From IMG/VR virus record IMGVR_UViG_2974642717_000001, positions 14,146-78,145 of that record: a stretch of DNA of 64,000 nt; one strand, given 5' to 3'. The first letter of the stretch is position 1; each line of letters opens with the position of its first letter. The DNA is from a virus. Its lineage: Duplodnaviria > Heunggongvirae > Uroviricota > Caudoviricetes > Schitoviridae. The notes under the pieces were generated by a model. The model made no database searches, was not told the DNA's origin, and worked only from the letters and a program-made list of their open reading frames with translations. Position numbers and translations under genes: made by a program. Positions 19,201 to 63,100 of the stretch are shown here, piece after piece.

Positions 19201-20281
19201 GTTCGGTTACCGTAAACCAAGTATCAATGAGTTGTTTGAGAAAGATCCTGCTGCTCGTCGTTACTGGGAGCACATGGTTGTTCAGGTACTATCTACTGTA
19301 TTACCAAAGGATACAGTACAGAAGGTTCGTAAAGCTGAAAACATCATTCAAGCAGTTGTGCAAGAGACTAAGGATATTGTTGTAGTACGTTCAATCGTAG
19401 TACCACTATTCAACGTATTCTCAAACACAATGTTCTTGATGCTTCAAGGTATCGATCCTGTAACTGCAATCCGTGGACAGGTAGAAGCGTACGTAGCCGG
19501 TAACCGTCTTGTAGCAGACATTCGTAAGAAAGATGAGCTAACTATCCAAGTAGCAGCTAAGTCTATTCAAGCGGCTACACGTACACGATTACTAGGTGAA
19601 TTAGCAGCAGTTGAAAGACGTATTGCTATCAACCCTACTAATGCTTCTTACCAAGCGGGTATGATGCCATCGGTAGTAGATGATGCAGAGACTAACGTAA
19701 ATATCTCTAACTCTCTACGTGGTCAGACTCAACGTAAGGTGAGTGCAGGTGTTGATAAAGTATTCGGTCGTATGCCGGCTCTAGTGCCAGATACAATCAA
19801 AGGTGTTCTAGGTTTGCCAGACAGTACAGCTTACCGCGCAATGAATAACTTTGTACGTAACTCTGACTTTATCGCTCGTCACGTTGTAGCTAACCATTGG
19901 GCAGCTCAACAAGCGAAAGAGCAAGGTCGTGCAGTAACGGAAGCACAGATGAATGAGCACTATGCAGAAGCAACTGAACTGTTTGTTAACTTTGATGCTC
20001 CTACTCACCGAGGCACACAGTACGCGAATGATATCGGTATTGCATGGTTCACTAAGTACTTGTTCCGTGTAAACAGGGCAGTGGCTAGAACATTCCTTAA
20101 GAACCCAGTTAAAGTATCTCTGGCAATGCTTGGTATGGAACTAGCAGGGTTTGATTCATTCTCTGATACTCCAATCGGTTCAGCTATGGTAGCAGGTCGT
20201 GATCCACTATCGACACTAGGTGACCCAGTTACCTCAGCTATCTCGGCACTAAGCCTAACAGTACCGGGCCAAGTCCTCTAA
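10247..20281 (+). CDS. virion-encapsidated RNA polymerase (N4 gp50-like vRNAP) with N-terminal T4-lysozyme-like domain
   Basis: 3344 aa. T7-like RNAP motifs: A 'EIDGKTNGIIIS' (~15251), B 'RNLAKNPLMVIFYGSGE' (~15536-15580), C 'IGVHDANL' (~16298). N-terminal ~150 aa resemble GH24/T4 lysozyme (EGYADAPYADTKGITTTGVGQ; later ...YAEAADEFLNN...QHPAIQRRMERV). Confidence 0.85.
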   Translation: MANIFYGADAVNQVELAEGPLSPIERVIVEEEGYADAPYADTKGITTTGVGQTGDYASMSAKEAIADKTQQTRQLIPAFDNLDVDTQAQLVSAMYRGDLGQSPKARALFNQGKYAEAADEFLNNDEYRITQHPAIQRRMERVADAMRNAGNTQEAAAEFELQNNPEVTPITSQTTVPTTGDKKMVELEAKNTAKMEELAVKSEQKQMKAAGMTDEQFNALDQSLEQYIQAGDPSEAAARATFYLDAQRTQQELSAAINAPKDETIFQDLNNPLEFAGNTLLSTANAIGNIFGGLASIPSEIRAGLNLSNVSAEDMAMYNQLQGRSEAVWTDEEYKWYQDNQDAVADIQKAEEQFAVSDAISGVTGVLEPYINSELGEDFVAEGKDIYDDALAGNSSAGEIVNGLTNLFINNPGALTQTTVESLPYMIAAAYNMPMTMASGWANNQSEAIQAFEEENGTLPTEKDLAKITALTGAQALVDMAGDRLVTGGAANLKKSVQALTGKKVAAKGVGAATGRAAVSAAGEFAAEGGADVLGQLAATAGEGDVDVGQAVGTGLLGAGSGGATSIAVDAPQVVADAGKATAKTAQTATTKVKEVKTSKTYKDAAKTNDPSVLPKQGDKGYDAKQDVEARTAMLESGALEESVAKESYNQVIKDNNARIKEFQELKAKSDAGDTSVNTRAREVFAEIKAIKPIVARAKATRAPKNVQAQATNLATATTNNTNTAAAVNTVLGSMAQDPQAIPVETVKQILDNESLNLTAFQRARMNANLTTRTAEVSLDDVSREIIQGSSANMGVRQYVAESLAAVEIEDTDTAQSLLTGLQAFRSSQVKKLNREGNTARFTENVTKEIRYMDAAINEIRIALGGTTDADTTINDTVATDDVSDSVDGENVDGDITTDNADTASSDTTVPTEGVAEQQASAPSEAQVAEDTTTTLSPLAESLPAPLELPEDAEISAEDLHVDALIEEAQVLLAEGTTYDQTIEAIEQRFGKETADFVADGLESEQAESQGTLGEQLTRSLTEAPEEVAYSVDLDAVEKVDERLTNLITSAGLAQSSPHLNDALEDVKASIRAGATVAASIKEIVPAYTGKPVKRLNASVRKLQADINRVPTNVDSGMTVEERKSWLQQVNWVKEFFTPTNPDNILQTNGNLFNQASSRRQIEEYIGRPLTDGELEQLIDYNTRRKSLATALDKVFSTEGYTDNYALGERDAEGKLKAPKYNDMMQYLAEDGELPAGVKEAIISAAYNWIATSAGDTLFNEDSAMNSILGETNGDAHIHRDVRNILQGVGTTRTTILQSLGKDVMSTIGISGTRNAPGNVNSKLETSLGQFTLEVMKQAGVVKQTQLSKEDMATLNRFSKDDAGVSPNIRFIKAATNKEGKLHTKLNDVVQLTKEARISARETGTPAAWTQMFGIQSRQVFPEFEKPTEVATKVTGTNRDVPRKTQEVLAKHNAREHFLKGDLTAMAQTMAEEASDEFMKLLGVTDPDSVHVSRRDAQDADNRNIERVWGNFDEFYRQNLEVGLDQPHYYTHNVWKNGRFGIAQNMVNPQGDKIHRAFIKQKGWDVELDPNNVEQMSQFWAAMDEELGFDNRNDMPRYIQEAANIVRGFLETDTFEDGDIETLSAIIRNELGGASNTAMLKLDAIMHIARHDIAVDTNETFQSEMFMEIDGKTNGIIISLIQYGAAATGIDLLNLVGMGGLYGEGDIRNFNDFKKAGNLDAYNKLAKDWIKNLKLTYTGADTTAMFKLFGLIDEKGNAVPKQERNLAKNPLMVIFYGSGENAVKQSLGSAFTEVVMDKLEAAGQAGDLQAYNDIRDELNKIVPHALPEVTQASQILETDLSNATLAKLEETVGEVFGSTAYAEVQAQYPEYMKRRDQVRDVYDSMYRRHAALREKLIEKRKAELVALGQLSNLEDMAKHEYRAIDDRIAAVGPHFNSHSTKGGPVEESIDPSKTKTEVDTKTRVQAKYGNKEQKVTSEGTKRVPAAPGVGAGPMSIHSADASIMRETYDNDIDSIGVHDANLIGITDAKKLGQVQNKAFETVTRETSVLVETLKAFRNSDQTYTSIIKEEGLNRTELDSAANGLDTPIEPTVIRERLLDLVDSTKAAGRVKDEMWQNTRYVHQYADHNGVSAHESNTKKWERFQYVKSGDAKSVAANAAEDVVTESLGSSQGIDFAEASDSNNYDNSVDVDLTNVGEVFESLPATGGKIENDVHKETLRGMVFNLTNKLSVPFGFHMREKEDVPNYGVATQSDIYLTTLANGAPETSGILAQGIRMSPEEIMAHELNHLVFAEGFKTDSRYRRQFERIFNAVKAEATPDIFLENPVNPTAAEQEAAQKHFDYIFNNKDGNSLEEFGAFATTNEKLIDFTNTITVKPEKWVQGDSPYEIMVNILSRIVDAFNARILHLSDISNDKKLFALMDGMNRITGKKQNGIIEAAQSAAAMAQQVMQIPSAMIEGAARKLAAVPVFKDSRYATVRILSEAVRKGNSGRDLNQAMLDHLNLMRDITTENKYGWFQSTADEMIGRTVDNATFRDMARTSNVMLDMGRKRAKDAMTKHIQNSFTTPVEDSEWNAINKVILKLDIDSISDIGLEKVGQLMNSDAALETEIAGLEQLLKTFNNYNFYRRHAENLGYFMNTGRSMEAAALLNAHNISKGYGDTKMNVTDATAARVEPIVDKLATLYGIKHADATNRNAIADLISRDVDGINAVIDAHHTLKEGSKDQFASTQEQKTLSLKGWTKEEYNAATGVEVATLDKREELESQGYIMQENPIPRDSKDPVQTDMYMFVAPDGALAPYMAQIASLTSNVAKGSDTVKVEAQYGADNPYDSGLVDVGIINKGKEAAQAQVHLNPVSPGPSGNKMIPIISPKDGKVVGWRYMMTEANRDEILQKDNNAANVLGAMAGNIVDKIKTQEVNKELVTAAKAQYDADLAKGRGNAYVEISEEAEGELLEIWRRMPEEMQKEVVSTFGSPRMMVRSDLVDQMFGYRKPSINELFEKDPAARRYWEHMVVQVLSTVLPKDTVQKVRKAENIIQAVVQETKDIVVVRSIVVPLFNVFSNTMFLMLQGIDPVTAIRGQVEAYVAGNRLVADIRKKDELTIQVAAKSIQAATRTRLLGELAAVERRIAINPTNASYQAGMMPSVVDDAETNVNISNSLRGQTQRKVSAGVDKVFGRMPALVPDTIKGVLGLPDSTAYRAMNNFVRNSDFIARHVVANHWAAQQAKEQGRAVTEAQMNEHYAEATELFVNFDAPTHRGTQYANDIGIAWFTKYLFRVNRAVARTFLKNPVKVSLAMLGMELAGFDSFSDTPIGSAMVAGRDPLSTLGDPVTSAISALSLTVPGQVL

Positions 20282-53729: not shown

Positions 53730-53777
53730 ATCTTATCCTTAAAGTAGGGCACACGAGGTGCCCCATTAGTTAATTAT

Positions 53778-53975
53778 TTAGGGTAGACATATAAATATGC
53801 CTAATGCTAAGACTAACCCGAAAAGGGTTCCCATTAGGAAATGCCCCGCCTTATCCACAAGAGTCACTTTATTTTCAATTACTTTATTTCCTTGAATGTA
53901 AACATCCTTGTCCGTGACTACTACGGTACGTGCGCCTAGCTGTACTGTTATATTATTCATTGTAATCCTTAGCAA
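53778..53975 (-). CDS. small membrane protein, 65 aa (C-terminal TM)
   Basis: 'LMGTLFGLVLALGIFICL' hydrophobic tail. Confidence 0.4.
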   Translation of the reverse strand: MLRITMNNITVQLGARTVVVTDKDVYIQGNKVIENKVTLVDKAGHFLMGTLFGLVLALGIFICLP

Positions 53976-55183
53976 ATTGGGTATTCAGCTTTACGAATAT
54001 GTGCAGCCATTTCAGTCTTAGTTAGACCATTACGTACATTCTCATACACTTCGTCTTCGCCAGTTAGATCACTGAAGATAGAGCTAAGTAGGTCAGACTC
54101 TGCAAGTTCAGCTAAGATCTCACGGTAGTGCTCACGCATAGACTGTACGTGGTTAGGTAGACACTTGAACGCGTCATGAATAGTGATTAGCTCGAATGAA
54201 CTGCGGCTAAGCACATCGTTGATCACCTTGTTAGCGCGGTAGATCTCTTCATAGCTCACAGTATCAATGTCCTGCTCACATGCAGTACGAAGGCTCATAG
54301 CTGCACTTAGGTCGATTGGATCTAGTGGCTTAGTGTTCAACATCAATGCAATCTGACACTTGTCAGCGATAGCACGTAGGTCATGACCAGTCACGTTCTC
54401 GAATGCAGTGTAGTTACAACGTCTGTGCATCTCACGTACCATGTACGCATCGATAGAGTGAACTACGTTAGCAGCTAGCATTACAGCATGGTCACGAGTA
54501 CCAATCTCTTTGAACTCATGGTAATACGTATGCTTAAGCTCATCAATGTAGATCTCTTCCATACGAGAGTTAACTACACGAATGATTACCTTGAAGCCAT
54601 CAGGCAGAGTCCACGTGTACTCTTCGGCTTCTGGGTCCCACACTTCAATCAGGTCGTTACGTAGCTCGTAAGCCCCTTTCAGTTTCTTACCACACATGTA
54701 GTAGAACTCATCCAGTAGCTCCGATGCTTGGCCTAATTCTTTCTCTGGTTCAGCTGTAGAGCCGTAGAAGTATGTCATTAGAGCATTCTTAGCCATCTTA
54801 CGTGTTAGGTCACATGCTGACTTAAGACCAGCGAGGATAGCTTTGAATGCCTCGGTGTAGCAGTCGTAACGTTTGCTAGGGTCAATCAGGTTAGTCCATA
54901 GACCACCAGTGTAACAACCAGTCAATGCTGACATGATCTGTACACCTGATGTAGTTGAATCGAACTCAACCAAGTGACCTGATGCTTTACCAGCTTGTGC
55001 ATCACGGATAGCCATCACTGACTTCATGAATGCAATTGGTTCATCTGCATCCATTACCATCTCTTCCAGCTTATCCAAGTTCTTCTCGGTGAATGCTAGA
55101 CGTGTCTCGAACTCATCTTTATCAAGGCCGAAGTTGTTTGCTACATCGATGAATAGAGCTTGCTTACCATTTAACTTGATCAT
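53969..55183 (-). CDS. phage RNA polymerase II, catalytic (C-terminal-type) subunit, T7-like (N4 gp16-like)
   Basis: Motif A 'DSTTSGVQIMSAL'; motif B 'RKMAKNALMTYFYGS'; motif C 'ITIHDAF'. Confidence 0.8.
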   Translation of the reverse strand: MIKLNGKQALFIDVANNFGLDKDEFETRLAFTEKNLDKLEEMVMDADEPIAFMKSVMAIRDAQAGKASGHLVEFDSTTSGVQIMSALTGCYTGGLWTNLIDPSKRYDCYTEAFKAILAGLKSACDLTRKMAKNALMTYFYGSTAEPEKELGQASELLDEFYYMCGKKLKGAYELRNDLIEVWDPEAEEYTWTLPDGFKVIIRVVNSRMEEIYIDELKHTYYHEFKEIGTRDHAVMLAANVVHSIDAYMVREMHRRCNYTAFENVTGHDLRAIADKCQIALMLNTKPLDPIDLSAAMSLRTACEQDIDTVSYEEIYRANKVINDVLSRSSFELITIHDAFKCLPNHVQSMREHYREILAELAESDLLSSIFSDLTGEDEVYENVRNGLTKTEMAAHIRKAEYPIC

Positions 55184-55194
55184 AATACTTTCCT

Positions 55195-55377: not shown

Positions 55378-55423
55378 AATACTTTCCTATTTATGGGAGA
55401 GGTGCCACCATGACACCTCTTTA

Positions 55424-55436
55424 AACACGTAGTGTT
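55424..55436 (-). promoter_or_regulatory. vRNAP hairpin-promoter candidate (AACAC-GTA-GTGTT)
   Basis: C-GTA-G (GNA-type) mini-hairpin on the template (+) strand; same motif as six other early intergenic sites; 47 nt from the downstream ATG. Confidence 0.5.
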
Positions 55437-55438
55437 GA

Positions 55439-55663
55439 TTAACCCTCTAACAGGGCTTCCATCTTAGCTTCCACTTCTAGGTCTTTAGCACACTGAAGTA
55501 GTTCAGCATGGCTATGGCTTGAGTAGTGAACAAACCAGTTAGCTAGATTGACTGGATTGATATAGTTATACCATTCCTTTTCGTATATCTGGAACACACC
55601 CTTGCGAGTGTGCTCTTCCATACGTCGTTTCATTAGACGAATCTCATGAGTCTTCATCTTCAA
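55439..55663 (-). CDS. early-region small protein, 74 aa
   Basis: ORF; ends ...EALLEG. Confidence 0.4.
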   Translation of the reverse strand: MKMKTHEIRLMKRRMEEHTRKGVFQIYEKEWYNYINPVNLANWFVHYSSHSHAELLQCAKDLEVEAKMEALLEG

Positions 55664-55862
55664 GAATCTCCATTAGTCTTTGCTCTTGATTGATTGGGTA
55701 TGACTCCAATGTGCGTACATCCCATGACATCTGGTAGTAGTCACAATCCTCGTTCTTACACGAGATAGAGCTGTAGTCATTGTTCACACCGTTCTCACGT
55801 TTATGTAGCATGTCACCCTCACAGTTAGGGCATCGGTATTTCTTTTGGTTTGGTTCAATCAT
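55644..55862 (-). CDS. small Cys4 zinc-ribbon protein, 72 aa
   Basis: 'CPNCEG...CKNEDCDY'; ends ...EILEDEDS. Confidence 0.4.
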   Translation of the reverse strand: MIEPNQKKYRCPNCEGDMLHKRENGVNNDYSSISCKNEDCDYYQMSWDVRTLESYPINQEQRLMEILEDEDS

Positions 55863-56079
55863 TCATTAATGTCTCCATCTTTAGTTCAACAAACAGCTCT
55901 TTCACAGTTTCAGCAGAGCATACATATATTTCTCCACCCTCTTCATGGTGGCCGGCTAAACACCACCAGTTGTCAGGGTTAGCCATTACAGTGACTAGAT
56001 CTTTATCCACAAGCCAACCTTTGCCATCATACTTAAGCAAGTAGCTTGAGCCATTACGGATTGAATATGCATCAATCAT
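55855..56079 (-). CDS. early-region small protein, 74 aa
   Basis: ORF; ends ...ETLMND. Confidence 0.4.
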   Translation of the reverse strand: MIDAYSIRNGSSYLLKYDGKGWLVDKDLVTVMANPDNWWCLAGHHEEGGEIYVCSAETVKELFVELKMETLMND

Positions 56080-56327
56080 TCAGTCACCTCTAACATCTTA
56101 ACCATTGGTAATATCTTCTCGAGAGTCTGGTAACGAGCATCCCAACCGATGAACATACACTTACCGCATGCCTCCAGTTGCTGCCGGCCATACTTACAGT
56201 GAGTGCACATAGTCTGAGTACTGTCGTTCTCATTATTGACCATGAGTTGATTGTTATCATCCTCACGGCCTATTTGTATCAACCACTCAATCATCTCTGA
56301 TGCTGTTGGTTCAGTATTATCACTCAT
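56076..56327 (-). CDS. early-region small Cys-containing protein, 83 aa
   Basis: 'CTHCKYG...CGKC'; ends ...KMLEVTE. Confidence 0.4.
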   Translation of the reverse strand: MSDNTEPTASEMIEWLIQIGREDDNNQLMVNNENDSTQTMCTHCKYGRQQLEACGKCMFIGWDARYQTLEKILPMVKMLEVTE

Positions 56328-56502
56328 CTATTAGCTTCCTCATACGAATGTAATCGATACGTTCTTCCATAAGCTTAATCTTATGGGGATTCTTGTATGT
56401 CTTCAGTCGGTCTAACAACACGCTCAATGAACGGTCAAAGCCATGCACTAGAGCTTGTTGATAGGTCTTCTCGAATGACTTCTGGTCTTTATTACTACTC
56501 AT
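56320..56502 (-). CDS. early-region small protein, 60 aa
   Basis: ORF; ends ...KLIDE. Confidence 0.4.
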   Translation of the reverse strand: MSSNKDQKSFEKTYQQALVHGFDRSLSVLLDRLKTYKNPHKIKLMEERIDYIRMRKLIDE

Positions 56503-56737
56503 CCATCAGTTTCTCCATCTTGTGATGTGCTACCACATCTTTCCAACCACGTCCCAATGCCAGTGGGCATCGGCTACATGTCCATTCACACTTAAGCTTA
56601 GTAGGCTCACCACCACCCTGAATGATGAGCAGCATTGGGATGTAGTCATACTCACCACCTCTGTGCTCAACTTTCTTGAGGTCATTATGTTTAGTCAAAT
56701 CGATTAGTCGATTGATTGCAGTGTTCTTATCATTCAT
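56495..56737 (-). CDS. early-region small protein (start revised to ATG at 56737, 80 aa)
   Basis: ATG at 56737 (MNDKNTAINR...) overlaps the upstream TGA (AATGAATGA); contains 'CEWTCSRC'. Confidence 0.4.
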   Translation of the reverse strand: MNDKNTAINRLIDLTKHNDLKKVEHRGGEYDYIPMLLIIQGGGEPTKLKCEWTCSRCPLALGRGWKDVVAHHKMEKLMDE

Positions 56738-56963
56738 TGAGTAGCATCTCCAGCTTGAGTTCATTGAGTGAATCACCTTCAGCAACAGTCTCAATGTTGA
56801 GCTGTATGTTAGGGTCTTCGCCTCTATAGTCACGGTTATGGACGTGGAAAGTATGTGATTCCAGAGCTTTCTCAATTGTGGTGCTCCACTTACCTCTAGT
56901 CTTATCACTCACAACAATCCAAGTGAGATCAGGATCATCAAGGTCTTTAATCAGTTTAAGCAT
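56730..56963 (-). CDS. early-region small protein, 77 aa
   Basis: ORF; ends ...EMLLNE. Confidence 0.4.
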   Translation of the reverse strand: MLKLIKDLDDPDLTWIVVSDKTRGKWSTTIEKALESHTFHVHNRDYRGEDPNIQLNIETVAEGDSLNELKLEMLLNE

Positions 56964-56964
56964 A

Positions 56965-57225
56965 TTAGTTCTCCAGTACTGAGAGCAGTAGTAGCTCTTC
57001 TAAGGTTTCTGCCTCAAACATTAAGGCTTTTGGTTCATGCAGGTTCTTTATACGTGCATGCTCTACACCAAATGGATCATCCTTAAATGTGATCCGTTTA
57101 TTTTGAACATGTTCTACAGCTTCCACAGGAGAGTTTGCCCACGAATAGGCATCTTCTCTCGTGTTAACTGCGTACACATCTCCATTGGTACGCAATTGCC
57201 ACATATTAGTCTTCCAATAGTTCAT
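56965..57225 (-). CDS. early-region small protein (start revised to ATG at 57225, 86 aa)
   Basis: ATG at 57225 (MNYWKTNMWQL...); the track start at 57354 overlaps the upstream gene by 149 nt. Confidence 0.35.
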   Translation of the reverse strand: MNYWKTNMWQLRTNGDVYAVNTREDAYSWANSPVEAVEHVQNKRITFKDDPFGVEHARIKNLHEPKALMFEAETLEELLLLSVLEN

Positions 57226-57472
57226 ATGTTTTAAGTAGGTTGACCAAGTCAGTCTTGGCCATATCATCCTCGAATGGACAAGCATCACAATTGATGCCTG
57301 TACATGCAGTAGACTCGCACAAGTCTTTGCGCCTAGTCTGTTCAAGGACTGCAATGAGCCCTTTGAGTCTAGAATCCATCAACCACCTCTTTGTTATGTA
57401 GTTCAACGATGCTCTTACGGAACACATCGCCTTGAGTGTTAGCATGGTAGCCAGATGCATACTTACGACCAC
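57206..57472 (-). CDS. early-region small Cys-rich protein, 88 aa
   Basis: 'CESTACTGINCDACPFE'; ends ...YELLED. Confidence 0.4.
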   Translation of the reverse strand: MVVSMHLATMLTLKAMCSVRASLNYITKRWLMDSRLKGLIAVLEQTRRKDLCESTACTGINCDACPFEDDMAKTDLVNLLKTYELLED

Positions 57473-58301
57473 GCTTATCAGGCTTGTGAGTCAAGTAGAA
57501 GCGGTTACCATTCTTAACCAAGTAAGCATACACATCAGCTGAGTCACGCATGAACTTGTCATACTGCTCTTTACGCTTAGGGTCACGCTTAAGCTCAACC
57601 TGTAGTTTCTTAGGGATCAACAGTGAATCAGTGATACCTTTCAACATCTCAATACTCAAGCTCATGGCTACACCATTAGCAATGTTAAGAGTATCAAGAC
57701 AGATATCACCATCATGATGATTAAACTTACCTAAGATCAATGACTTATCTTCACCAGTAAGCAATGGGTTGCTACGGTTATGAGTCAAGTGAGCAGGCTT
57801 ACACACCATTGGTGGTAAGAACATAGCACGTTGCATCAACTGAGCTGTTGTATCACTCACTTCCCAAGGGTTAGTGATGTAGTAATACTCTTCAGTGATC
57901 ATCTGACCAGTCTCTTCATCCTCATCATCGTACGACACGTACTCGATGTCGAATAGATCTGCATCGGCAAGAACCACTAACACACGGTTAGCTAGTTCAA
58001 TAGCATCAGCCTTATCATCACGCTCAAACAAGTGTGACAACTGACCAGCTAACGCACTGATCAACTCACGTCGCTCATCCAATGCCATTACTAACAACAT
58101 AGCCTCATGTACTACTAGACTTGGTTCATCACCTAAGTCAATATCATGCTGAGCACTCCAACGATACAGCGCCATAGAAGCCTCAAACATGGCCTCCATT
58201 ACTTCACCGTCACGTGCAATCTCACCCTCTAAACGAGTGCGAATGCCTGCTTTGCTTAACGATAGTTCAGTAGCTGTTTGTACATCAACGATATTAGTCA
58301 T
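57369..58301 (-). CDS. phage RNA polymerase II, N-terminal-type subunit, T7-like (N4 gp15-like)
   Basis: 'FYLTHKPDKRGRKYASGYHANTQGDVFRKSIVELHNKE' aligns with T7 RNAP 'IWFPYNMDWRGRVYAVSMFNPQGNDMTKGLLTLAKGK'. Confidence 0.6.
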   Translation of the reverse strand: MTNIVDVQTATELSLSKAGIRTRLEGEIARDGEVMEAMFEASMALYRWSAQHDIDLGDEPSLVVHEAMLLVMALDERRELISALAGQLSHLFERDDKADAIELANRVLVVLADADLFDIEYVSYDDEDEETGQMITEEYYYITNPWEVSDTTAQLMQRAMFLPPMVCKPAHLTHNRSNPLLTGEDKSLILGKFNHHDGDICLDTLNIANGVAMSLSIEMLKGITDSLLIPKKLQVELKRDPKRKEQYDKFMRDSADVYAYLVKNGNRFYLTHKPDKRGRKYASGYHANTQGDVFRKSIVELHNKEVVDGF

Positions 58302-58303
58302 AA

Positions 58304-58540
58304 CTATTTCTCCATTAAATGAATCATTTTAAGGGTATTTAAATCTTCGTACTCACCAAGTAGTTCTATCGGATATTCAGTATGCATATCCTTAGGGTAC
58401 TTATCCTTCTTCCACACGTAGTGTAGGTCTAGCTCCATGTCACCTATTGAGTACCAACATGCGTAGTTACCTCGGACAACATAGTAAGGGACATTGACAA
58501 TATCACCCTCTTCAGTAACCTCTTTATATATCTTCCACAT
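58304..58540 (-). CDS. early-region small protein (start revised to ATG at 58540)
   Basis: MWKIYKEV... start overlaps the upstream TGA (AAATGATATG); ends ...HLMEK. Confidence 0.4.
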   Translation of the reverse strand: MWKIYKEVTEEGDIVNVPYYVVRGNYACWYSIGDMELDLHYVWKKDKYPKDMHTEYPIELLGEYEDLNTLKMIHLMEK

Positions 58541-58541
58541 A

Positions 58542-58793
58542 TCATTTCTCCAGTAATAACAGTAACTTAATCTCTTCAACAGTATCAGCTTCAGCTTTCA
58601 ACTCATAACGTTGAGTCATATACTTTAGCTCAACTGGATCTTCTACATCAGTTGGGAACATATTCTCTCGATAACACTCATCATCAGTTGCACACCAGTA
58701 TGACCAGTGAGTGATGTAACCATCATCACCCACTTTCAACAACATCCAAGGAGTGAATATATCCTTAGCGTCATAGATCATTACATATCTCAT
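58542..58793 (-). CDS. early-region small protein, 83 aa
   Basis: Ends ...LLLLLEK; CTGGAGAAA supplies the SD for the next gene. Confidence 0.4.
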   Translation of the reverse strand: MRYVMIYDAKDIFTPWMLLKVGDDGYITHWSYWCATDDECYRENMFPTDVEDPVELKYMTQRYELKAEADTVEEIKLLLLLEK

Positions 58794-59044
58794 TACGACT
58801 CCAATAGCTCAATCAGCTTGAGCTGTTCAATTGCTTGATTAACAACGCGTAGATGATCAGCATCATTCAGTATCATGTTGAGTTCAGGGTACTGCTTCTC
58901 ATACGATGAAGGAGTAACTTGATCACCTGAGTCAAAGTTAGTACCAGATACTATGTATGTACCATCACGTGTGATCTCTTTCTTGTTATCCAGATCAATA
59001 AAGTCACGGATACCAATCAACACCATCATTAGTTCTTGGTTCAT
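58793..59044 (-). CDS. early-region small protein, 83 aa
   Basis: ORF; ends ...LIELLES. Confidence 0.4.
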   Translation of the reverse strand: MNQELMMVLIGIRDFIDLDNKKEITRDGTYIVSGTNFDSGDQVTPSSYEKQYPELNMILNDADHLRVVNQAIEQLKLIELLES

Positions 59045-59045
59045 A

Positions 59046-59315
59046 TTAACCTTCCATTAGTTTAGCCATAGGCATGTAGTTCTCAATTAACAACAGACGT
59101 TCAGCCCACATAGGCATACACTTAGCCATTGCCTTACGTGTCTTAACACTCAACAGGTATCTATTACCATCACCCTCTTGCCATGAGTAGTGATTATCAC
59201 GCATCATGAAGCGTTGTATCTGATACTCAAGAGCTCTGCGTTCACACTCAAGCTGATGCACACTCATGTTGTACATCTTCTCAACGAATAGTTTGTTATG
59301 TTGGTTCGGTATCAT
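59046..59315 (-). CDS. early-region small protein, 89 aa
   Basis: ORF; ends ...AKLMEG. Confidence 0.4.
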   Translation of the reverse strand: MIPNQHNKLFVEKMYNMSVHQLECERRALEYQIQRFMMRDNHYSWQEGDGNRYLLSVKTRKAMAKCMPMWAERLLLIENYMPMAKLMEG

Positions 59316-59316
59316 G

Positions 59317-59625
59317 TTAACTCTCCAGTAGCATTATTAGTTTAAGTTCGTCCAAGGTGTTACCCTCGGCTATCAGGTTATAAGCACCTATCTCACGAAT
59401 AGCTTGGTAGTTCTTTACCATAGGTGTCTCCGCGAATGCGTCCTCTACAGTCTCACACCAAATGGTGGGATTACATCTGTAGTGATACTCATCCTCTGGT
59501 TTAGGTAGTCGTTGCACCTCACCCACTGTCCTGAAGTACATATCATCAGCTGGGTCTTGCCATAGTCTATGCATGATAGAACTTCTCATGACATGGCGTA
59601 TCGCCTTGTTTAATAAGAGTGGCAC
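59317..59625 (-). CDS. early-region small protein, 102 aa
   Basis: Ends ...LIMLLES (CTG GAG AGT TAA C ATG: SD embedded in the last codons). Confidence 0.4.
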   Translation of the reverse strand: MPLLLNKAIRHVMRSSIMHRLWQDPADDMYFRTVGEVQRLPKPEDEYHYRCNPTIWCETVEDAFAETPMVKNYQAIREIGAYNLIAEGNTLDELKLIMLLES

Positions 59626-59754
59626 AGTACACCTCGTAAGGGATATTGCCTTGGATACACATTTTAATCATTGCTAAGTGTTGTTCGTTATTCATGGTGG
59701 TTTACCTATCTATTTAAAAAGAGTGGCACACCCTAAGGCATGCCACATATCACG

Positions 59755-60027
59755 TTAAGCGAACTTAACTTCACCTTTGGGTGCATTATCAACCACATGC
59801 ACAGTACCAACGAGTTTGAACTCAACAGCATCAGTACCAGCTTCATCAGCTGCCATTTGAGCATTGATCATCATCTCATGGATATGCTTCTCAAGGTGCA
59901 TAGCCATATCTTTAGGAAGACGATGTTGATTGCCAGCAGCATCTACAACCTCAAGACGCAAGAATGCATCAGCAGGTTTGAAGTTAGAGTTACCAGCAGT
60001 ACGAGGAGTTGAAGTTTTACGAGCCAT
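59755..60027 (-). CDS. early protein, 91 aa from ATG at 60027
   Basis: The ATG at 60027 (MARKTSTPR...) is 49 nt downstream of a hairpin promoter candidate; the track start at 60099 runs through the promoter. Confidence 0.45.
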   Translation of the reverse strand: MARKTSTPRTAGNSNFKPADAFLRLEVVDAAGNQHRLPKDMAMHLEKHIHEMMINAQMAADEAGTDAVEFKLVGTVHVVDNAPKGEVKFA

Positions 60028-60075
60028 AATTGTATACCTATAAATTGAATTGGGGATGCAACAGCGCATCATTTT

Positions 60076-60090
60076 AAGCACGTAGTGCTT
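60076..60090 (-). promoter_or_regulatory. vRNAP hairpin-promoter candidate (AAGCAC-GTA-GTGCTT)
   Basis: 6-bp stem, GTA loop, flanked on the left by ATTTTA; 49 nt from the ATG at 60027. Confidence 0.55.
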
Positions 60091-60188
60091 GGAAACCATC
60101 TATCTTGATAGAGGTAAGTGATTTAATACGTAGGACATGCTCTTGATCTTTGTGTCAAAGAGGAACACTCCGAAGAGTGTTCACATGT

Positions 60189-60704
60189 TTATTTGATACG
60201 AGTAGCTTCTTTGATTGCTTGCTTGAACTCATACTTAACAAGTGAGTATTCGTAGTAAGTCTTGATGTTATCAAGCGTACTGTCACCATCACATAGGATT
60301 CCACCATCACTACCTTGATAGCACTGAAGGTTCTCATCCCATTGATATTTCACTTGGTTCTCGGCATCCACATCCCATTTGAATGAGTACACATCACCAG
60401 CTGCTAGTGAGTTCTCACCAGAGCCTTGAGAGTAGACAACAGTAGTTGAGTCTGAGTACTTAACAGAGTCTATTAGACCTGTTGTTGCACGTATGTCTAA
60501 CGACACTAAGCCATTACATTCATTAACCTCAAATACATATGTACGAGTACCTAGATACTCATGGTACGTATTATTAACTGAGCAATGCTCAACAGGAGTT
60601 ACTACTACATCATCGCTTGGAGTAGAAGGAGTTGAGCTACCACCACCTCCACCACCACAACCAATAAGAGCTAGAGACATTACCATTGCAATTAAATATT
60701 TCAT
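60189..60704 (-). CDS. early lipoprotein with poly-Gly linker (start at ATG 60704)
   Basis: 'MKYLIAMVMSLALIGCGGGGGGSSTPSTP': signal peptide + lipobox LIGC + Gly6; SD AAGGAAG. Confidence 0.5.
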   Translation of the reverse strand: MKYLIAMVMSLALIGCGGGGGGSSTPSTPSDDVVVTPVEHCSVNNTYHEYLGTRTYVFEVNECNGLVSLDIRATTGLIDSVKYSDSTTVVYSQGSGENSLAAGDVYSFKWDVDAENQVKYQWDENLQCYQGSDGGILCDGDSTLDNIKTYYEYSLVKYEFKQAIKEATRIK

Positions 60705-60750
60705 TGTATCTTCCTTTAAAAGAGTTAGGGACAGCACATACCATCCCTTT

Positions 60751-60765
60751 AATCACGTAGTGATT
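60751..60765 (-). promoter_or_regulatory. vRNAP hairpin-promoter candidate (AATCAC-GTA-GTGATT)
   Basis: Identical 15-mer also at 61339-61353; preceded by CTTTA; 47 nt from the ATG at 60704. Confidence 0.55.
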
Positions 60766-60853
60766 GTATTACTTACTAGATTGTTTCTTAGCATCTTCAA
60801 TAGCTTTCTTAAGCTTAAGGAGAGCATCTTTACTATAGTTATTTAACATAGTA

Positions 60854-61105
60854 TTACCTTAATAGTAGTTCTAGTTTAGCTTCAGCAGCTACAGTCTGTA
60901 GGTTAGTACCTTCAGTTACTAGACGAAGATCCCAACGGCTAATAATATCTTCAACATTACGGTCTTCTGAGCGGAAGAACTCTGGATTCTTCTGTAGGGT
61001 AGCATCCACACTTTCATAAGCGTGGATTTTATTCCCATGTTGTAGCCAGATATCATCATCACGGTCTATGTAGATGGAGTACATATTAGTCCTGTAGTGC
61101 TTCAA
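60854..61105 (-). CDS. early-region small protein, 83 aa
   Basis: ORF; ends ...LELLLR. Confidence 0.4.
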   Translation of the reverse strand: MKHYRTNMYSIYIDRDDDIWLQHGNKIHAYESVDATLQKNPEFFRSEDRNVEDIISRWDLRLVTEGTNLQTVAAEAKLELLLR

Positions 61106-61292
61106 GCACAGATTTCTTAGTTAGACCAAACTTACGTGATACAACAGTAAGTTGCTTTTGATTACCTGACTGAGCAGTATCACCACCAACACCATATACA
61201 CTTACAGTGATACCACCATTACGTAGTGCTTGTACACGTACTTCTTGGTTAGCTGAGTTAGTCATGCGGATTACTTTAGGAGAGATAGACAT
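61086..61292 (-). CDS. early-region small protein, 68 aa
   Basis: SD AAGGTAAT; hairpin promoter candidate 47 nt upstream. Confidence 0.45.
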   Translation of the reverse strand: MSISPKVIRMTNSANQEVRVQALRNGGITVSVYGVGGDTAQSGNQKQLTVVSRKFGLTKKSVLEALQD

Positions 61293-61338
61293 AGTTATTA
61301 CCTTTATAGTTTAAGTGAGCACGATTGCTCTATCATTT

Positions 61339-61353
61339 TAATCACGTAGTGAT
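61339..61353 (-). promoter_or_regulatory. vRNAP hairpin-promoter candidate (AATCAC-GTA-GTGATT)
   Basis: Preceded by CATTTTA as at 60751; 47 nt from the ATG at 61292. Confidence 0.55.
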
Positions 61354-61397
61354 TGCCTTTAAAAAACAAATGCACACCCTCTCGGATGTGCAATGTA

Positions 61398-61622
61398 TTA
61401 GTGCTGACGCTTGTTGAATGATGACAGTAGGTTGTTCTCATTCATCACGTCCCAATTGGTAGTACCAAGAGCTTCACTAATGTAGTCAAACTCTTGTTCA
61501 TCGTAGTTACAATCTAACTCACGACTCATACCACTCCCACTGAAATAGCTACTGAACAGGTCTTGCAGTTCAGCGTAGTATTCAGGAGTGATAGACTGAG
61601 GAGCAACAGATAGTAGTGCCAT
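61398..61622 (-). CDS. early-region small protein (start revised to ATG at 61622, 75 aa)
   Basis: SD AAGGTAA precedes the ATG at 61622 (MALLSVAPQ...); the track start at 61733 runs through the promoter hairpin. Confidence 0.4.
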   Translation of the reverse strand: MALLSVAPQSITPEYYAELQDLFSSYFSGSGMSRELDCNYDEQEFDYISEALGTTNWDVMNENNLLSSFNKRQH

Positions 61623-61658
61623 GTTATTTACCTTTAGGTTGATTGGATTGTTCTTCTT

Positions 61659-61673
61659 TAGCACGTAGTGCTC
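61659..61673 (-). promoter_or_regulatory. vRNAP hairpin-promoter candidate (TAGCAC-GTA-GTGCTC)
   Basis: 5-bp stem AGCAC/GTGCT with GTA loop; 37 nt from the ATG at 61622. Confidence 0.45.
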
Positions 61674-61814
61674 GCTCTTCCATCTGTTGACAAGCTTGAT
61701 CATTGACATGCTTGAAGTATGTAGCACCATCAAAGATGATGTGACACATGATACGGAACAGGTTGTAAGGTAGTTTAATCAGTAGCCAGATGTTCATCAG
61801 CATAGGAGTATTCT

Positions 61815-62162
61815 CTATTTAGTTAAGGTCTTGAGGGATTCTGGGGACATATTGTCTAGAAGGAACTGCATTTGTACCCACTGGTTTAGTTCTTCAATGC
61901 TATCGAAGTCACCAATGATATGTATATGCTCATCATCAGTGATATGACCACCATCAACAAACATACGTTGATATGCATCATTAGCTAACTCTTGCTTGCT
62001 ACTAACATGAACACATACGAAGTATGAGCTATTGATAGCAGTTTGAGCTTTTTCAACATTCTCAACTAAACTACCTACCCATTGGAAATGGTCGTATTCA
62101 GTAAGTAATGCTAGGCTTGGTTTACCAACATTAATGTATACAGCGTATAGACGTAGCTTCAT
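61815..62162 (-). CDS. early-region protein, 115 aa
   Basis: ORF downstream of an AT-rich inverted-repeat intergenic region. Confidence 0.45.
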   Translation of the reverse strand: MKLRLYAVYINVGKPSLALLTEYDHFQWVGSLVENVEKAQTAINSSYFVCVHVSSKQELANDAYQRMFVDGGHITDDEHIHIIGDFDSIEELNQWVQMQFLLDNMSPESLKTLTK

Positions 62163-62202
62163 AGTTTATAACCTTAGGGATATTTTGGAGGTTAAACATT
62201 AG

Positions 62203-62234
62203 TATAGATATAGCCATTATTAGCTATATCTATA
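62203..62234. repeat. perfect 12-bp inverted repeat TATAGATATAGC-8 nt-GCTATATCTATA in an AT-rich intergenic region, plus two GTATTAGTATA direct repeats (62235-62245, 62267-62277)
   Basis: Read directly from the sequence; the 127-nt non-coding gap 62163-62289. Confidence 0.7.
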
Positions 62235-62289
62235 GTATTAGTATATAGGTGCAATAGGTAAGAGAAGTATTAGTATACTTCTATAGAAG

Positions 62290-62601
62290 TTACTTGTTCT
62301 TGAAGTAGATGTCTTCATCAACTACACATACTCTATCTATTAGTGCAATGTCTTGTCTCTCAATGCCTTGTGATACAAGGTGTGCAATACATTTAGCATC
62401 TTCTCTATAGTTCTCTAGTTCAGTCATGAATAGCTCATAAGTGTATAGACCTGATGTAATAGCACCTATTACACATAGGATAGTTACTAGAGCAGTGATG
62501 TATTCAATACGAGTAAGGTTTAGTTTAGGCATAGGATATTCCAATGTAGTGTAAGGGTTAAGGATGCAACACAGTTGCAATGAATAGCAGTGATATACCA
62601 C
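62290..62601 (-). CDS. early membrane protein (TM helix ITALVTILCVIGAITSGLY); start GTG 62601 or ATG 62532
   Basis: ORF; hydrophobic helix; start ambiguous. Confidence 0.4.
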   Translation of the reverse strand: MVYHCYSLQLCCILNPYTTLEYPMPKLNLTRIEYITALVTILCVIGAITSGLYTYELFMTELENYREDAKCIAHLVSQGIERQDIALIDRVCVVDEDIYFKNK

Positions 62602-62615
62602 TAATCTACTACCTT

Positions 62616-62630
62616 ACTCACGTAGTGAGT
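62616..62630 (-). promoter_or_regulatory. vRNAP hairpin-promoter candidate (ACTCAC-GTA-GTGAGT)
   Basis: 6-bp stem with GTA loop, between a terminator/(TTGTG)4 repeat and the next gene. Confidence 0.45.
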
Positions 62631-62656
62631 GCTCTTTCCTACCCTATCTGTCTTCT

Positions 62657-62676
62657 TGTGTTGTGTTGTGTTGTGT
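62657..62676. repeat. (TTGTG)x4 tandem pentanucleotide repeat
   Basis: Four perfect tandem copies between the terminator at ~62681-62715 and the promoter hairpin at 62616. Confidence 0.8.
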
Positions 62677-62680
62677 AGAA

Positions 62681-62715
62681 AGAAAAAAGGGTGAAGCAGC
62701 CCTAAGGCTACTTCT
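62681..62715 (-). terminator. intrinsic terminator after gene 62708..62896
   Basis: - strand RNA: GAAGUAGCC-UAG-GGCUGCUUC (9 bp, one G-U) followed by ACCC + UUUUUUCUUU. Confidence 0.55.
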
Positions 62716-62896
62716 CTTCTTTGTCTAGTTCTAGCTCTGATGCGTCTAGGTCTAAGTCTTCTAACGTATCGTTGAGTAGCTTAGTTGAATGTGCTTGACC
62801 AACCTTAGCTAGGTTGTCCATGCCTACCATGGTACGCTCTGCTACTGTGCCGATCATGAATAGTGCACGGAATAGTTGACCGATTGATGCGAACAT
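62708..62896 (-). CDS. early-region small protein, 62 aa
   Basis: First gene downstream of the 62937 hairpin promoter candidate (41 nt spacing). Confidence 0.45.
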   Translation of the reverse strand: MFASIGQLFRALFMIGTVAERTMVGMDNLAKVGQAHSTKLLNDTLEDLDLDASELELDKEEK

Positions 62897-62936
62897 AATG
62901 TTATACCTTTAGTTATTATGACGTAATTGTCATGTT

Positions 62937-62951
62937 AATCCCGTAGGGATT
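62937..62951 (-). promoter_or_regulatory. vRNAP hairpin-promoter candidate, variant stem (AATCCC-GTA-GGGATT)
   Basis: Same C-GTA-G loop and TTAAT left flank but a different stem sequence; 41 nt upstream of the ATG at 62896. Confidence 0.45.
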
Positions 62952-62966
62952 GCTCTTGATCTTATA

Positions 62967-62976
62967 GGGGGGGGGG
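62967..62976. repeat. G10 homopolymer tract
   Basis: TATAGGGGGGGGGGTCTT read directly; intergenic, between a terminator and the first early promoter. Confidence 0.9.
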
Positions 62977-63054
62977 TCTTCTCTTTTAAAAGGATCAAGG
63001 AGTATAGTACTACTCTCGTACCTAATTATTAAAAATTTCAAAATACCTGCGGGT

Positions 63055-63080
63055 ACAAAAAAGCCTCCATTTTCGGAGGC
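63055..63080 (-). terminator. intrinsic terminator after gene 63101..63439
   Basis: - strand: GCCTCC-gaaaat-GGAGGC followed by TTTTTTGT. Confidence 0.7.
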
Positions 63081-63100
63081 TAGTTAGTAAGTAATATTTA

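What the first reader, a model, noticed from the sequence alone, without database searches (positions are those of the whole stretch)
55424..62951. Seven conserved C-GTA-G mini-hairpins in early intergenic regions: candidate vRNAP promoters
The sites are 55424-55436, 60076-60090, 60751-60765, 61339-61353, 61659-61673, 62616-62630 and 62937-62951. Each is a 5-6 bp inverted repeat around a GTA loop closed by C:G; the GNA-type trinucleotide loop is the known hyper-stable DNA mini-hairpin form. Each has a T-rich/TTTAA-like left flank and lies on the template strand at a near-constant distance upstream of the first ATG of a - strand early operon (47, 49, 47 and 47 nt for four sites; 41 and 37 for two more). 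Several sit just past an intrinsic terminator. N4-family vRNAPs are known to recognise template-strand DNA hairpins with 3-nt loops. The element would therefore define this phage's early promoter code, with a loop sequence (GTA) and stem variants (CAC versus CCC) specific to it.
Basis: partly seen in the sequence, partly recalled or inferred. Interest (0 to 1): 0.6.

Follow-up and report, generated by a model that had tools for sequence, protein, structure and literature searches.

The report
Hairpin early promoters of an N4-like phage
Seven small DNA hairpins at one end of this Vibrio phage genome are almost certainly start signals for the RNA polymerase the phage injects with its DNA, a mechanism already known from phage N4 and its relatives, so the find is a sound annotation and not a new kind of element.

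Summary
The window is Vibrio phage vB_VspP_pVa5 (Schitoviridae, N4-like), record bases 14146-78145.

**Observation.** Stems are 5-6 bp and all seven lie on the + strand, which is the template for the - strand early genes. The whole 78 kb genome holds 8 such hairpins on both strands, against 0.45 expected. Seven of them lie in 7.5 kb, and six are intergenic although only 12% of that region is intergenic.

**Controls and relatives.**
- The same scan finds exactly three hairpins in N4's early region, including the published P2 sequence.
- It finds only template-strand hairpins in nine other Schitoviridae.
- Orthologous sites in phages 1.097.O and 1.025.O are 93% identical, against 69% for their flanks.

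**Reading.** These are N4-type promoters for the virion RNA polymerase (vRNAP). No transcript data exist for this phage.

- The GTA loop is not specific to pVa5. It also occurs in VBP47, pYD6-A and LUZ7, and in LUZ7 two copies sit where a paper places tandem early start sites.
- The start is more likely 13 nt from the loop centre than 11, because the template has C there in 6 of 7 sites.
- Site 5 lies inside an annotated CDS.
- A 4-bp copy at 58419 may be an eighth promoter.

**Verdict.** New member of a known kind, of modest interest.

The parts
55424..55436 (+). Hairpin site 1, AACAC-GTA-GTGTT (5 bp), loop centre 55430. It lies 9 nt past the stop of gene 0081 and upstream of 0080 and 0079 (large subunit of the phage's second RNA polymerase, RNAPII). 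Predicted +1 is about 55417.
   Evidence: Orthologous hairpins lie upstream of the RNAPII large-subunit gene in 1.097.O, 1.025.O, pYD6-A and VBP47.
60076..60090 (+). Hairpin site 2, AAGCAC-GTA-GTGCTT (6 bp), centre 60083, upstream of gene 0097. Predicted +1 is about 60070.
   Evidence: It is 18 of 18 identical to its orthologues in 1.097.O and 1.025.O over -9..+8.
60751..60765 (+). Hairpin site 3, AATCAC-GTA-GTGATT (6 bp), centre 60758, upstream of gene 0098. Predicted +1 is about 60745.
61339..61353 (+). Hairpin site 4, AATCAC-GTA-GTGATT (6 bp), centre 61347. It lies 18 nt past terminator 61392-61371 and upstream of gene 0100. Predicted +1 is about 61334.
61660..61672 (+). Hairpin site 5, AGCAC-GTA-GTGCT (5 bp), centre 61666. 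It lies inside the 3' end of annotated CDS 0102 and 44 nt upstream of the ATG of 0101. Predicted +1 is about 61653.
62616..62630 (+). Hairpin site 6, ACTCAC-GTA-GTGAGT (6 bp), centre 62623, upstream of gene 0104 (annotated ATG at 62532). The template has C at 14, not 13.
62937..62951 (+). Hairpin site 7, AATCCC-GTA-GGGATT (6 bp), centre 62944. It is the first hairpin in the direction of transcription, upstream of gene 0105. Predicted +1 is about 62931.
58414..58424 (+). Possible eighth, weaker site: ACAC-GTA-GTGT (4 bp), centre 58419. It lies inside CDS 0091, 118 nt upstream of the ATG of the RNAPII small-subunit gene. It has TT at -9/-8 and C at -13/-14 but lacks AA at -7/-6.
   Evidence: Position-weight-matrix score 16.6 bits, against 25-35 for the seven sites and 12.7 or less for background. 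It is conserved in 1.097.O and 1.025.O. Unresolved.
10247..20281 (+). Virion RNA polymerase gene (3344 aa, no cysteine), the enzyme proposed to read the hairpins.
   Evidence: E = 7e-12 to N4 vRNAP structures 3C2P and 2PO4. (zero Cys). (catalytic Asp residues align). Annotated as such in KX889068.
57369..58301 (-). RNAPII small-subunit gene (0090), an early gene that must be transcribed before RNAPII exists.
53969..55183 (-). RNAPII large-subunit gene (0079), downstream of site 1.
61371..61392 (-). Intrinsic terminator ending the unit upstream of site 4. Similar - strand terminators lie at 62693-62714, 63062-63081 and 59723-59746, and there is a palindromic one at 60163-60182.
   Evidence: 14 terminator-like sites against 3.9 expected.

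Best explanation
The seven hairpins are early promoters of the N4 type, read by the virion RNA polymerase (vRNAP, ORF 10247-20281) that pVa5 injects with its DNA.

**Inferred mechanism, by analogy with N4.**
1. After entry, negative supercoiling extrudes each inverted repeat as a cruciform.
2. On the template (+) strand the loop 5'-G-T-A-3', closed by 5'C:G3', forms the compact GNA mini-hairpin with a sheared G:A pair.
3. The complementary TAC loop is not stabilised in this way.
4. vRNAP binds the template-strand hairpin and starts RNA synthesis a fixed distance downstream. The most likely start is the conserved template C 13 nt from the loop centre, which gives transcripts that begin with G.
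5. Each transcript carries a 31-43 nt leader (about 78 nt at site 6) to a ribosome-binding site and ATG.

**Layout.** The seven promoters, with intrinsic terminators in between, divide the early region into short units. These units include both subunits of the phage's second RNA polymerase (RNAPII).

**Shown here:** the sequence, strand, position, enrichment and conservation of the hairpins, and the presence of the polymerase gene.

**Inferred:** extrusion, binding by vRNAP, the start site and the early timing.
For: **Identity.** The window is 100% identical to Vibrio phage vB_VspP_pVa5, Schitoviridae. It has a giant cysteine-free vRNAP related to N4 vRNAP structures.

**Enrichment and position.**
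- 8 C-GTA-G hairpins with stems of at least 5 bp occur in the genome, against 0.45 expected. Seven are clustered in 7.5 kb on one strand.
- CACGTAGTG occurs 8 times on the + strand and 0 times on the - strand.
- 6 of 7 sites are intergenic where intergenic DNA is 11.9% of the region.

**Orientation.** All sites have the GNA loop on the template strand.
- The three hairpins found in N4's early region show the same. One carries the published P2 template sequence, and all three lie upstream of genes a paper names as vRNAP-transcribed.
- Every C-GNA-G hairpin with a stem of at least 5 bp in the early regions of G7C, JWAlpha and PhiImVa-1 is on the template strand, with none on the other strand. 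Template-strand scans of JA-1, LUZ7, VBP47, pYD6-A, 1.097.O and 1.025.O find them too.

**Match to published N4 determinants.** N4 needs the 5'C:G3' closing pair plus 5'G and 3'A of the loop for extrusion and stability (PMC4496689). All seven sites have these.

**Experimental analogue.** LUZ7 has two C-GTA-G hairpins 32 nt apart upstream of the Drc gene. The ONT-cappable-seq paper reports two tandem early start sites 33 nt apart there, among the strongest early ones, with G starts 13-14 nt from the hairpin centre.

**Conservation.** Orthologous sites are 93% identical over -9..+8 against 69% in the flanks. Stem positions vary as Watson-Crick pairs: A:T, G:C and T:A at the fourth pair.

**Logic.** The RNAPII genes lie downstream of the hairpins, so the enzyme that reads the hairpins must exist before RNAPII does. 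Sigma-70-like sites are not enriched, 13 against 24 expected.
Against: - There are no transcript or biochemical data for this phage, and its paper does not mention promoters.
- Two of the four bases that N4 vRNAP reads specifically differ. Position -11 is T where N4 has A or G, and -8 is A (C at site 7) where N4 has G.
- Site 5 lies in an annotated CDS. Site 6 has a long leader and lacks C at 13.
- Nearest-neighbour folding energies are small, -2.5 to -4.5 kcal/mol.
- The covariation count is partly circular, because the sites were picked by their stems.
- The 4.3-kb operon 0096-0081 has no hairpin with a stem of at least 5 bp. Its expression needs read-through of terminator 59746-59723 or the weak 58419 copy.
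Confidence: 0.85

Rival explanations
1. The hairpins are promoters or loading sites for a different polymerase, either the phage RNAPII with its single-strand DNA-binding cofactor or the host RNA polymerase, and not for vRNAP.
For: LUZ7 middle promoters read by RNAPII are also hairpins, GC-rich with stems of at least 6 bp and 3-4 nt loops (PMC9163698). One weak sigma-70-like match overlaps site 4.
Against: - Both RNAPII genes lie downstream of these hairpins, so RNAPII cannot be the first enzyme to read them.
- The motif is absent from the roughly 25 kb middle region on the same strand.
- Sigma-70-like sites are fewer than in shuffles.
- The loop and closing pair match the N4 vRNAP determinants and not the LUZ7 middle type.
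Confidence: 0.06
2. The inverted repeats are double-stranded binding sites (operators) for a dimeric phage or host regulator that controls early genes.
For: A palindromic CAC-N3-GTG core is repeated in front of several transcription units.
Against: - A symmetric operator would not fix the orientation of the central GTA. All 7 sites, and all hairpins found in the related early regions, have G-N-A on the template strand relative to the direction of the genes.
- Stem bases outside CAC/GTG change as complementary pairs. That conserves structure and not sequence.
- The loop and closing pair are exactly the mini-hairpin consensus.
Confidence: 0.04
3. The element works in RNA, as a small stem-loop (loop UAC) in read-through transcripts, for example a processing or stability signal between cistrons.
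For: The sites lie between transcription units, and read-through of phage terminators is common in LUZ7.
Against: - A 5-6 bp AU-rich stem with a UAC triloop has no known special stability in RNA. The review of mini-hairpins reports the RNA version of one such hairpin, r(GCGAAAGC), to be far less stable than the DNA version (PMC13037366).
- No Rfam family matches.
- There is no U tract, so the sites are not terminators.
- The conserved T-rich flank and the C at 13 nt lie on the template strand downstream of the hairpin, as in N4 and LUZ7 promoters.
Confidence: 0.03
4. The sites are chance palindromes.
For: One further C-GTA-G hairpin lies inside the vRNAP gene (window 17018, - strand). About 0.45 per genome are expected by chance.
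Against: - 8 were observed against a maximum of 4 in 300 shuffles.
- 7 are clustered on one strand.
- They are conserved in other genera.
Confidence: 0.01

Closest known systems
Coliphage N4 early promoters P1, P2 and P3, read by N4 vRNAP
   Same: - A template-strand hairpin with a 5-7 bp stem and a 3-nt loop.
- The loop is 5'-G-N-A-3' closed by 5'C:G3'.
- An A/T-rich single-stranded spacer leads to a template C at the start.
- They lie at the genome end that carries the early genes, including the RNAPII genes.
- The phage has a giant cysteine-free virion polymerase.
   Different: - Position -11 is T, where N4 has A or G contacted by R119 and W129.
- Position -8 is A or C, where N4 has G contacted by R904.
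- The spacer is T-rich (TTTAA), where N4 has AAAA.
- The likely start is at 13 nt, not 11.
- There are seven or eight sites over 7.5 kb, against three in N4.
Pseudomonas phage LUZ7 early promoters (nine early start sites mapped by ONT-cappable-seq)
   Same: - C-GTA-G hairpins lie on the template strand. LUZ7 centres 3669 and 3701 are upstream of the Drc gene.
- Template C lies 12-14 nt from the loop centre.
- Many promoters are spread over the early region.
- Stems as short as 4 bp are accepted.
   Different: - LUZ7 stems are GC-rich (AGACC, CAGGC) and it also uses a GAA loop.
- pVa5 stems are A/T-rich with an invariant C-A-C (C-C-C once), and only GTA is seen.
- The LUZ7 loop sequences were read here from the genome. 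The paper's text as held does not spell them out, and its supplement is not held.
Early-region hairpins of Vibrio phages 1.097.O, 1.025.O and 1.026.O, VBP47, and Pseudoalteromonas phage pYD6-A
   Same: - The same C-GTA-G loop and the same -8A.
- The same TTAA-like flank and C at 13-14.
- Orthologous positions, for example upstream of the RNAPII large-subunit gene.
   Different: - VBP47 and pYD6-A mostly have GAC...GTC where pVa5 has CAC...GTG.
- They also carry N4-P2-like AAAGC-GGA-GCTTT hairpins.
- As far as the held literature shows, none of these has been described as a promoter.
GCGNAGC DNA mini-hairpins (Hirao and co-workers)
   Same: A C:G closing pair around a G-N-A loop with a sheared G:A pair. 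N may be any base (PMC13037366).
   Different: The second pair is A:T here, where the canonical unit has G:C. The stability of the CAC-GTA-GTG form has not been measured.

Membership tests
N4-type vRNAP hairpin promoter | The phage encodes a giant virion RNA polymerase of the N4 type. | tested here: met
   ORF 10247-20281 is 3344 aa. It matches N4 vRNAP structures at E = 7e-12, has zero cysteines like the N4, LUZ7, pYD6-A and JA-1 enzymes, and its catalytic Asp residues align.
N4-type vRNAP hairpin promoter | An inverted repeat that gives a 5-7 bp stem and a 3-nt loop. | tested here: met
   All seven sites have stems of 5 or 6 bp and 3-nt loops.
N4-type vRNAP hairpin promoter | On the template strand, the loop reads 5'-G-N-A-3' and is closed by 5'C:G3'. 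| tested here: met
   7 of 7 sites read C-GTA-G on the + strand, and all downstream genes are on the - strand. The requirement is taken from PMC4496689.
N4-type vRNAP hairpin promoter | Purine (A or G) at the loop centre, -11. | tested here: not met
   Position -11 is T in 7 of 7 sites. The same T occurs in LUZ7 hairpins that coincide with reported early start sites. This feature therefore defines the N4 enzyme's specificity and not the class.
N4-type vRNAP hairpin promoter | G at -8 in the stem. | tested here: not met
   Position -8 is A in 6 sites and C in 1.
N4-type vRNAP hairpin promoter | Template C at the start site, at a fixed distance from the loop (11 nt in N4, 13-14 nt in LUZ7). | tested here: met
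   C lies 13 nt from the loop centre in 6 of 7 sites and at 14 nt in site 6. C lies at 11 nt in only 3 of 7.
N4-type vRNAP hairpin promoter | Confined to the early region, upstream of early genes that include RNAPII. | tested here: met
   7 of the 8 genome-wide hairpins lie in window 55430-62944, upstream of units that contain genes 0090 and 0079.
N4-type vRNAP hairpin promoter | Rifampicin-resistant initiation by vRNAP that depends on gyrase and single-strand DNA-binding protein, on extruded or single-stranded template. | not testable with these tools
   This needs infection experiments or in vitro transcription.
Intrinsic (rho-independent) terminator | A GC-rich stem followed by a U tract on the transcribed strand. 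| tested here: not met
   On the - strand the hairpins are followed by AAA-rich sequence, not T-rich. Separate true terminators lie nearby. The scan's only hit on a hairpin is site 6 on the + strand, where there are no genes.

The most novel reading that the evidence does not exclude
The vRNAPs of the marine Pontosvirinae and Fuhrmanvirinae phages (pVa5, 1.097.O, 1.025.O, VBP47, pYD6-A) may read a hairpin code with -11T and -8A that N4 vRNAP would be expected to reject, since N4 reads a purine at -11 and G at -8. That would imply a rebuilt -11 pocket and specificity loop. It would also give naturally orthogonal pairs of hairpin promoter and polymerase for transcription from single-stranded DNA. 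The N4 contact residues R119, W129, D901 and R904 could not be aligned to pVa5, which is compatible with this idea but does not show it.
Probability: 0.45. Interest if true: 0.4.

Novelty: new member of a known kind. Interest (0 to 1): 0.25.

Why it matters
- It gives pVa5 and its Vibrio relatives a concrete early-promoter map. The genome paper and the GenBank record lack one.
- It predicts transcription start points that can be checked directly.
- It shows that the central loop base of vRNAP hairpin promoters varies by lineage. It is a purine in N4, G7C, JWAlpha, JA-1 and PhiImVa-1. It is T in pVa5-like phages, and in VBP47, pYD6-A and LUZ7 T-loop hairpins sit alongside purine-loop ones.
- This makes the specificity of the -11 pocket a tractable comparative question. 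It does not reveal a new mechanism.

Tried and rejected
- **Contact residues by sequence search.** phmmer of the pVa5 polymerase domain against solved structures aligned only the palm, chain residues 337-714. The N4 promoter-contact residues could not be read off.
- **Contact residues by alignment.** A MAFFT alignment of five full vRNAPs aligned the catalytic Asp residues cleanly. K114, R119, W129, D901 and R904 fell in gappy, unreliable columns. No conclusion was drawn.
- **Literature search for the motif.** A full-text search for CACGTAGTG and variants returned only unrelated primer and aptamer papers.
- **Papers not held.** The N4 primary papers PMC1855362, PMC2639713 and PMC317147 are not held. 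The LUZ7 supplement with start-site coordinates is not held.
- **RNA families.** An Rfam scan of 53000-64000 at E up to 1 gave only a chance snoRNA-like hit.
- **Metagenome-derived viral contigs.** An IMG/VR scan for TTAANCACGTAGTGNTT gave 33 loci. Thirty-one were single hits with chance-level complementarity at the free pair (9 of 31). Only the two Nahant phage genomes had several sites. The scan was useful as a negative control and yielded no new relatives.
- **Other candidate sites.** The CACGTAGTG copy at 30054 (centre 30058) was rejected. Its stem is broken and it lies inside the ribonucleotide reductase alpha CDS. The - strand hairpin at 17018 inside the vRNAP gene was treated as the expected chance occurrence.
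- **Covariation count.** The result is reported but given little weight, because the sites had been selected by their stems.

Full report
**Identity of the window.** Bases 55000-63100 are 100% identical to Vibrio phage vB_VspP_pVa5 (KX889068.2, record 69145-77245). This phage belongs to Schitoviridae, Pontosvirinae, Galateavirus, and infects Vibrio splendidus. A window coordinate equals the record coordinate minus 14145, and the window runs to the end of the record. All annotated genes from 53969 to 64000 are on the - strand. They include the two subunits of the phage's second RNA polymerase (RNAPII): 0079 at 53969-55183 and 0090 at 57369-58301. The vRNAP gene is ORF 10247-20281 on the + strand, 3344 aa. 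It matches the N4 vRNAP crystal structures at E = 7e-12. Like the N4, LUZ7, pYD6-A and JA-1 enzymes, it contains no cysteine.

**The observation.** All seven inverted repeats are present as described. Each reads C-GTA-G on the + strand, with a stem of 5 bp (sites 1 and 5) or 6 bp. Two counts show this is not chance.
- The 9-mer CACGTAGTG occurs 8 times, always on the + strand, against 0.53 expected.
- In the rebuilt 78,145-bp genome there are 8 C-GTA-G hairpins with stems of at least 5 bp on both strands, against a mean of 0.45 and a maximum of 4 in 300 dinucleotide-preserving shuffles.

The eighth lies at window 17018 on the - strand inside the vRNAP gene, and it is about what chance predicts. 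Six of the seven are intergenic although intergenic DNA is only 11.9% of the early region. Site 5 lies in the last codons of annotated CDS 0102. The left flank is conserved: TT at -9/-8 in 7 of 7 sites and AA at -7/-6 in 6 of 7. As single-stranded DNA every site folds into the expected hairpin, at -2.5 to -4.5 kcal/mol by nearest-neighbour rules.

**Strand and geometry.** The genes are on the - strand, so the + strand is the template, and the template carries 5'-C(-9) G(-10) T(-11) A(-12) G(-13)-3'. The N4 review states two requirements (PMC4496689). First, the 5'C:G3' closing pair and the 5'G and 3'A of the loop are needed for hairpin extrusion and stability, through a sheared G:A pair. Second, N4 vRNAP specifically reads -11A/G, -10G, -8G and +1C. 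The pVa5 sites have the closing pair, -10G and -12A. They differ in having T at -11, and at -8 they have A (C at site 7).

**Positive control.** I scanned the template strand of early regions for C-GNA-G hairpins with stems of at least 5 bp.
- In N4's first 6 kb the scan returns exactly three sites: centre 96 (GTTGC-GAA-GCAAC) upstream of gp1, centre 565 (GAAGC-GGA-GCTTC) upstream of gp2, and centre 4554 upstream of gp15.
- N4 has three known early promoters near its left end (PMC13492108), and vRNAP is reported to transcribe gp1, gp2, gp15 and gp16 (PMC13434306).
- The published P2 template oligonucleotide contains the centre-565 sequence in the orientation I used. I could not confirm the published coordinates of P1 and P3.

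**Relatives.** Template-strand scans of the early regions give the following loops.
- 1.097.O and 1.025.O: C-GTA-G.
- pYD6-A and VBP47: C-GTA-G, mostly with GAC...GTC stems, plus N4-P2-like GGA hairpins.
- LUZ7: GTA and GAA.
- JA-1, G7C, JWAlpha and PhiImVa-1: GGA or GAA only.

Where the other strand was also scanned (G7C, PhiImVa-1, JWAlpha), it held none.

In LUZ7 two GTA hairpins, centred at 3669 and 3701, lie 32 nt apart upstream of gp14, the Drc gene. The ONT-cappable-seq study describes two of the strongest early start sites as tandem, 33 nt apart, and driving Drc. It reports nine early start sites in all, stems of at least 4 bp, and G starts 13-14 nt from the hairpin centre (PMC9163698). 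The GTA loop therefore very probably already has experimental support as a vRNAP promoter loop. It is not specific to pVa5.

**Conservation.**
- Four pVa5 sites (1, 2, 4, 6) have orthologues in 1.097.O and 1.025.O, which belong to different genera. Over -9..+8 they are 93% identical, against 69% in the 50-nt flanks on each side.
- Among paralogous and orthologous sites the stem positions outside the invariant C:G change as Watson-Crick pairs. For example the fourth pair is A:T, G:C or T:A. That count is partly circular, because the sites were found by their stems.
- A less circular check used the IMG/VR scan for TTAANCACGTAGTGNTT. Its 31 single-hit loci had a complementary free pair in 9 of 31 cases, which is chance level. 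The Schitovirus loci had 6 of 6, and pVa5 has 3 of 3.

**Start site.** The template has C 13 nt from the loop centre in 6 of 7 sites (14 nt at site 6). It has C at 11 nt in only 3 of 7. Together with the LUZ7 data this favours +1 at the centre minus 13: positions 55417, 60070, 60745, 61334, 61653, about 62610, and 62931. The predicted leaders begin with G. They are 31-43 nt long (78 nt at site 6) and end in AGG/AAGG ribosome-binding sites.

**Rivals.**
- Sigma-70-like promoters are not enriched, 13 against 24.3 expected. None sits in the relevant gaps except one weak 9-of-12 match over site 4.
- A symmetric operator would not keep the central GTA in one orientation relative to transcription in every phage examined.
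- The hairpins lack a U tract on the transcribed strand. True terminators are separate elements, 14 found against 3.9 expected.
- No Rfam family matches.

**Open points.**
1. The 4.3-kb operon 0096-0081, which contains the RNAPII small subunit, has no hairpin with a stem of at least 5 bp. It must be reached by read-through of terminator 59746-59723 from site 2, or from the 4-bp copy at 58419. That copy scores 16.6 bits in a position-weight-matrix scan, against 25-35 for the seven sites and 12.7 or less for background. It is conserved in both relatives.
2. Whether the pVa5 enzyme requires T at -11 is unknown. The N4 contact residues could not be aligned.
3. No transcript data exist for this phage. 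Its genome paper does not mention promoters or hairpins.

**Verdict.** The interpretation as vRNAP early promoters is well supported by position, strand, sequence determinants, a positive control and comparison. The claim that the loop is phage-specific is wrong, and the expected start distance should be 13 nt, not 11. This is a new member of a known kind. It is useful annotation and a modest comparative lead on promoter specificity, and it is not a surprising element.

Noticed in passing
window 62967-62976: This G10 run (C10 on the coding strand) is the only G or C homopolymer of 8 or more in the 64-kb window. It lies 23-32 nt upstream of the first hairpin, site 7. N4 has a C9 run at 32-40 of its physical left end, upstream of P1. 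VBP47 has a C10 run 21-30 nt upstream of its first GTA hairpin (L008 733-742). This suggests that the physical left end of pVa5 lies between the terminator at 63062-63081 and this run, and that the GenBank record is opened elsewhere.
   Followed up: partly
window 55395-55418, 60054-60071, 60727-60748, 61317-61330, 62919-62934: At sites 1-4 and 7 a short stem-loop lies immediately downstream of the promoter hairpin and covers the predicted +1, so the transcript would begin at or within a few nt of its 5' arm. The one at site 1 (GGTG...CACC) keeps its stem, with a different loop, in 1.097.O, 1.025.O, pYD6-A and VBP47 upstream of the RNAPII large-subunit gene. It may be a 5' stabilising or regulatory RNA hairpin.
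   Followed up: partly
window 58414-58424: A 4-bp C-GTA-G copy lies inside CDS 0091, 118 nt upstream of the RNAPII small-subunit ATG. It is conserved in 1.097.O and 1.025.O. N4 and G7C have a hairpin upstream of the equivalent gene, gp15.
   Followed up: partly
window 59723-59746: A strong - strand terminator sits directly in front of the ribosome-binding site of gene 0096, with no hairpin promoter after it. The long operon 0096-0081 therefore appears to depend on terminator read-through.
   Followed up: no
window 62163-62289: The AT-rich gap between genes 0104 and 0103 has no GTA hairpin. It holds a 14-bp-stem palindrome (62203-62234) and three copies of ACTAATA. Its function is unknown.
   Followed up: no
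window 60771-60851, - strand: A possible unannotated ORF of about 26 aa (MLNNYSKDALLKLKKAIEDAKKQSSK) lies between genes 0099 and 0098. It ends just upstream of hairpin site 3 (read).
   Followed up: no
L008 centres 4265 and 1486; L005 centres 3326 and 1273: VBP47 and pYD6-A carry a second class of template-strand hairpins, AAAGC-GGA/GAA-GCTTT, which closely resembles N4 P2. These sit beside the GTA class. pVa5 has no such class in its early region.
   Followed up: no
window 10247-20281: The pVa5 vRNAP (3344 aa) contains no cysteine. Neither do the vRNAPs of N4, LUZ7, pYD6-A and JA-1. This was noted before for LUZ7 and LIT1/PEV2 (PMC3715699).
   Followed up: yes
window 17012-17024, - strand: CTAAC-GTA-GTTAG is the only other C-GTA-G hairpin with a stem of at least 5 bp in the genome. 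It lies on the template strand inside the vRNAP gene, with a CCATTAG flank that loosely resembles the promoter flank. It is probably chance, since 0.45 are expected per genome. Its conservation was not checked.
   Followed up: no
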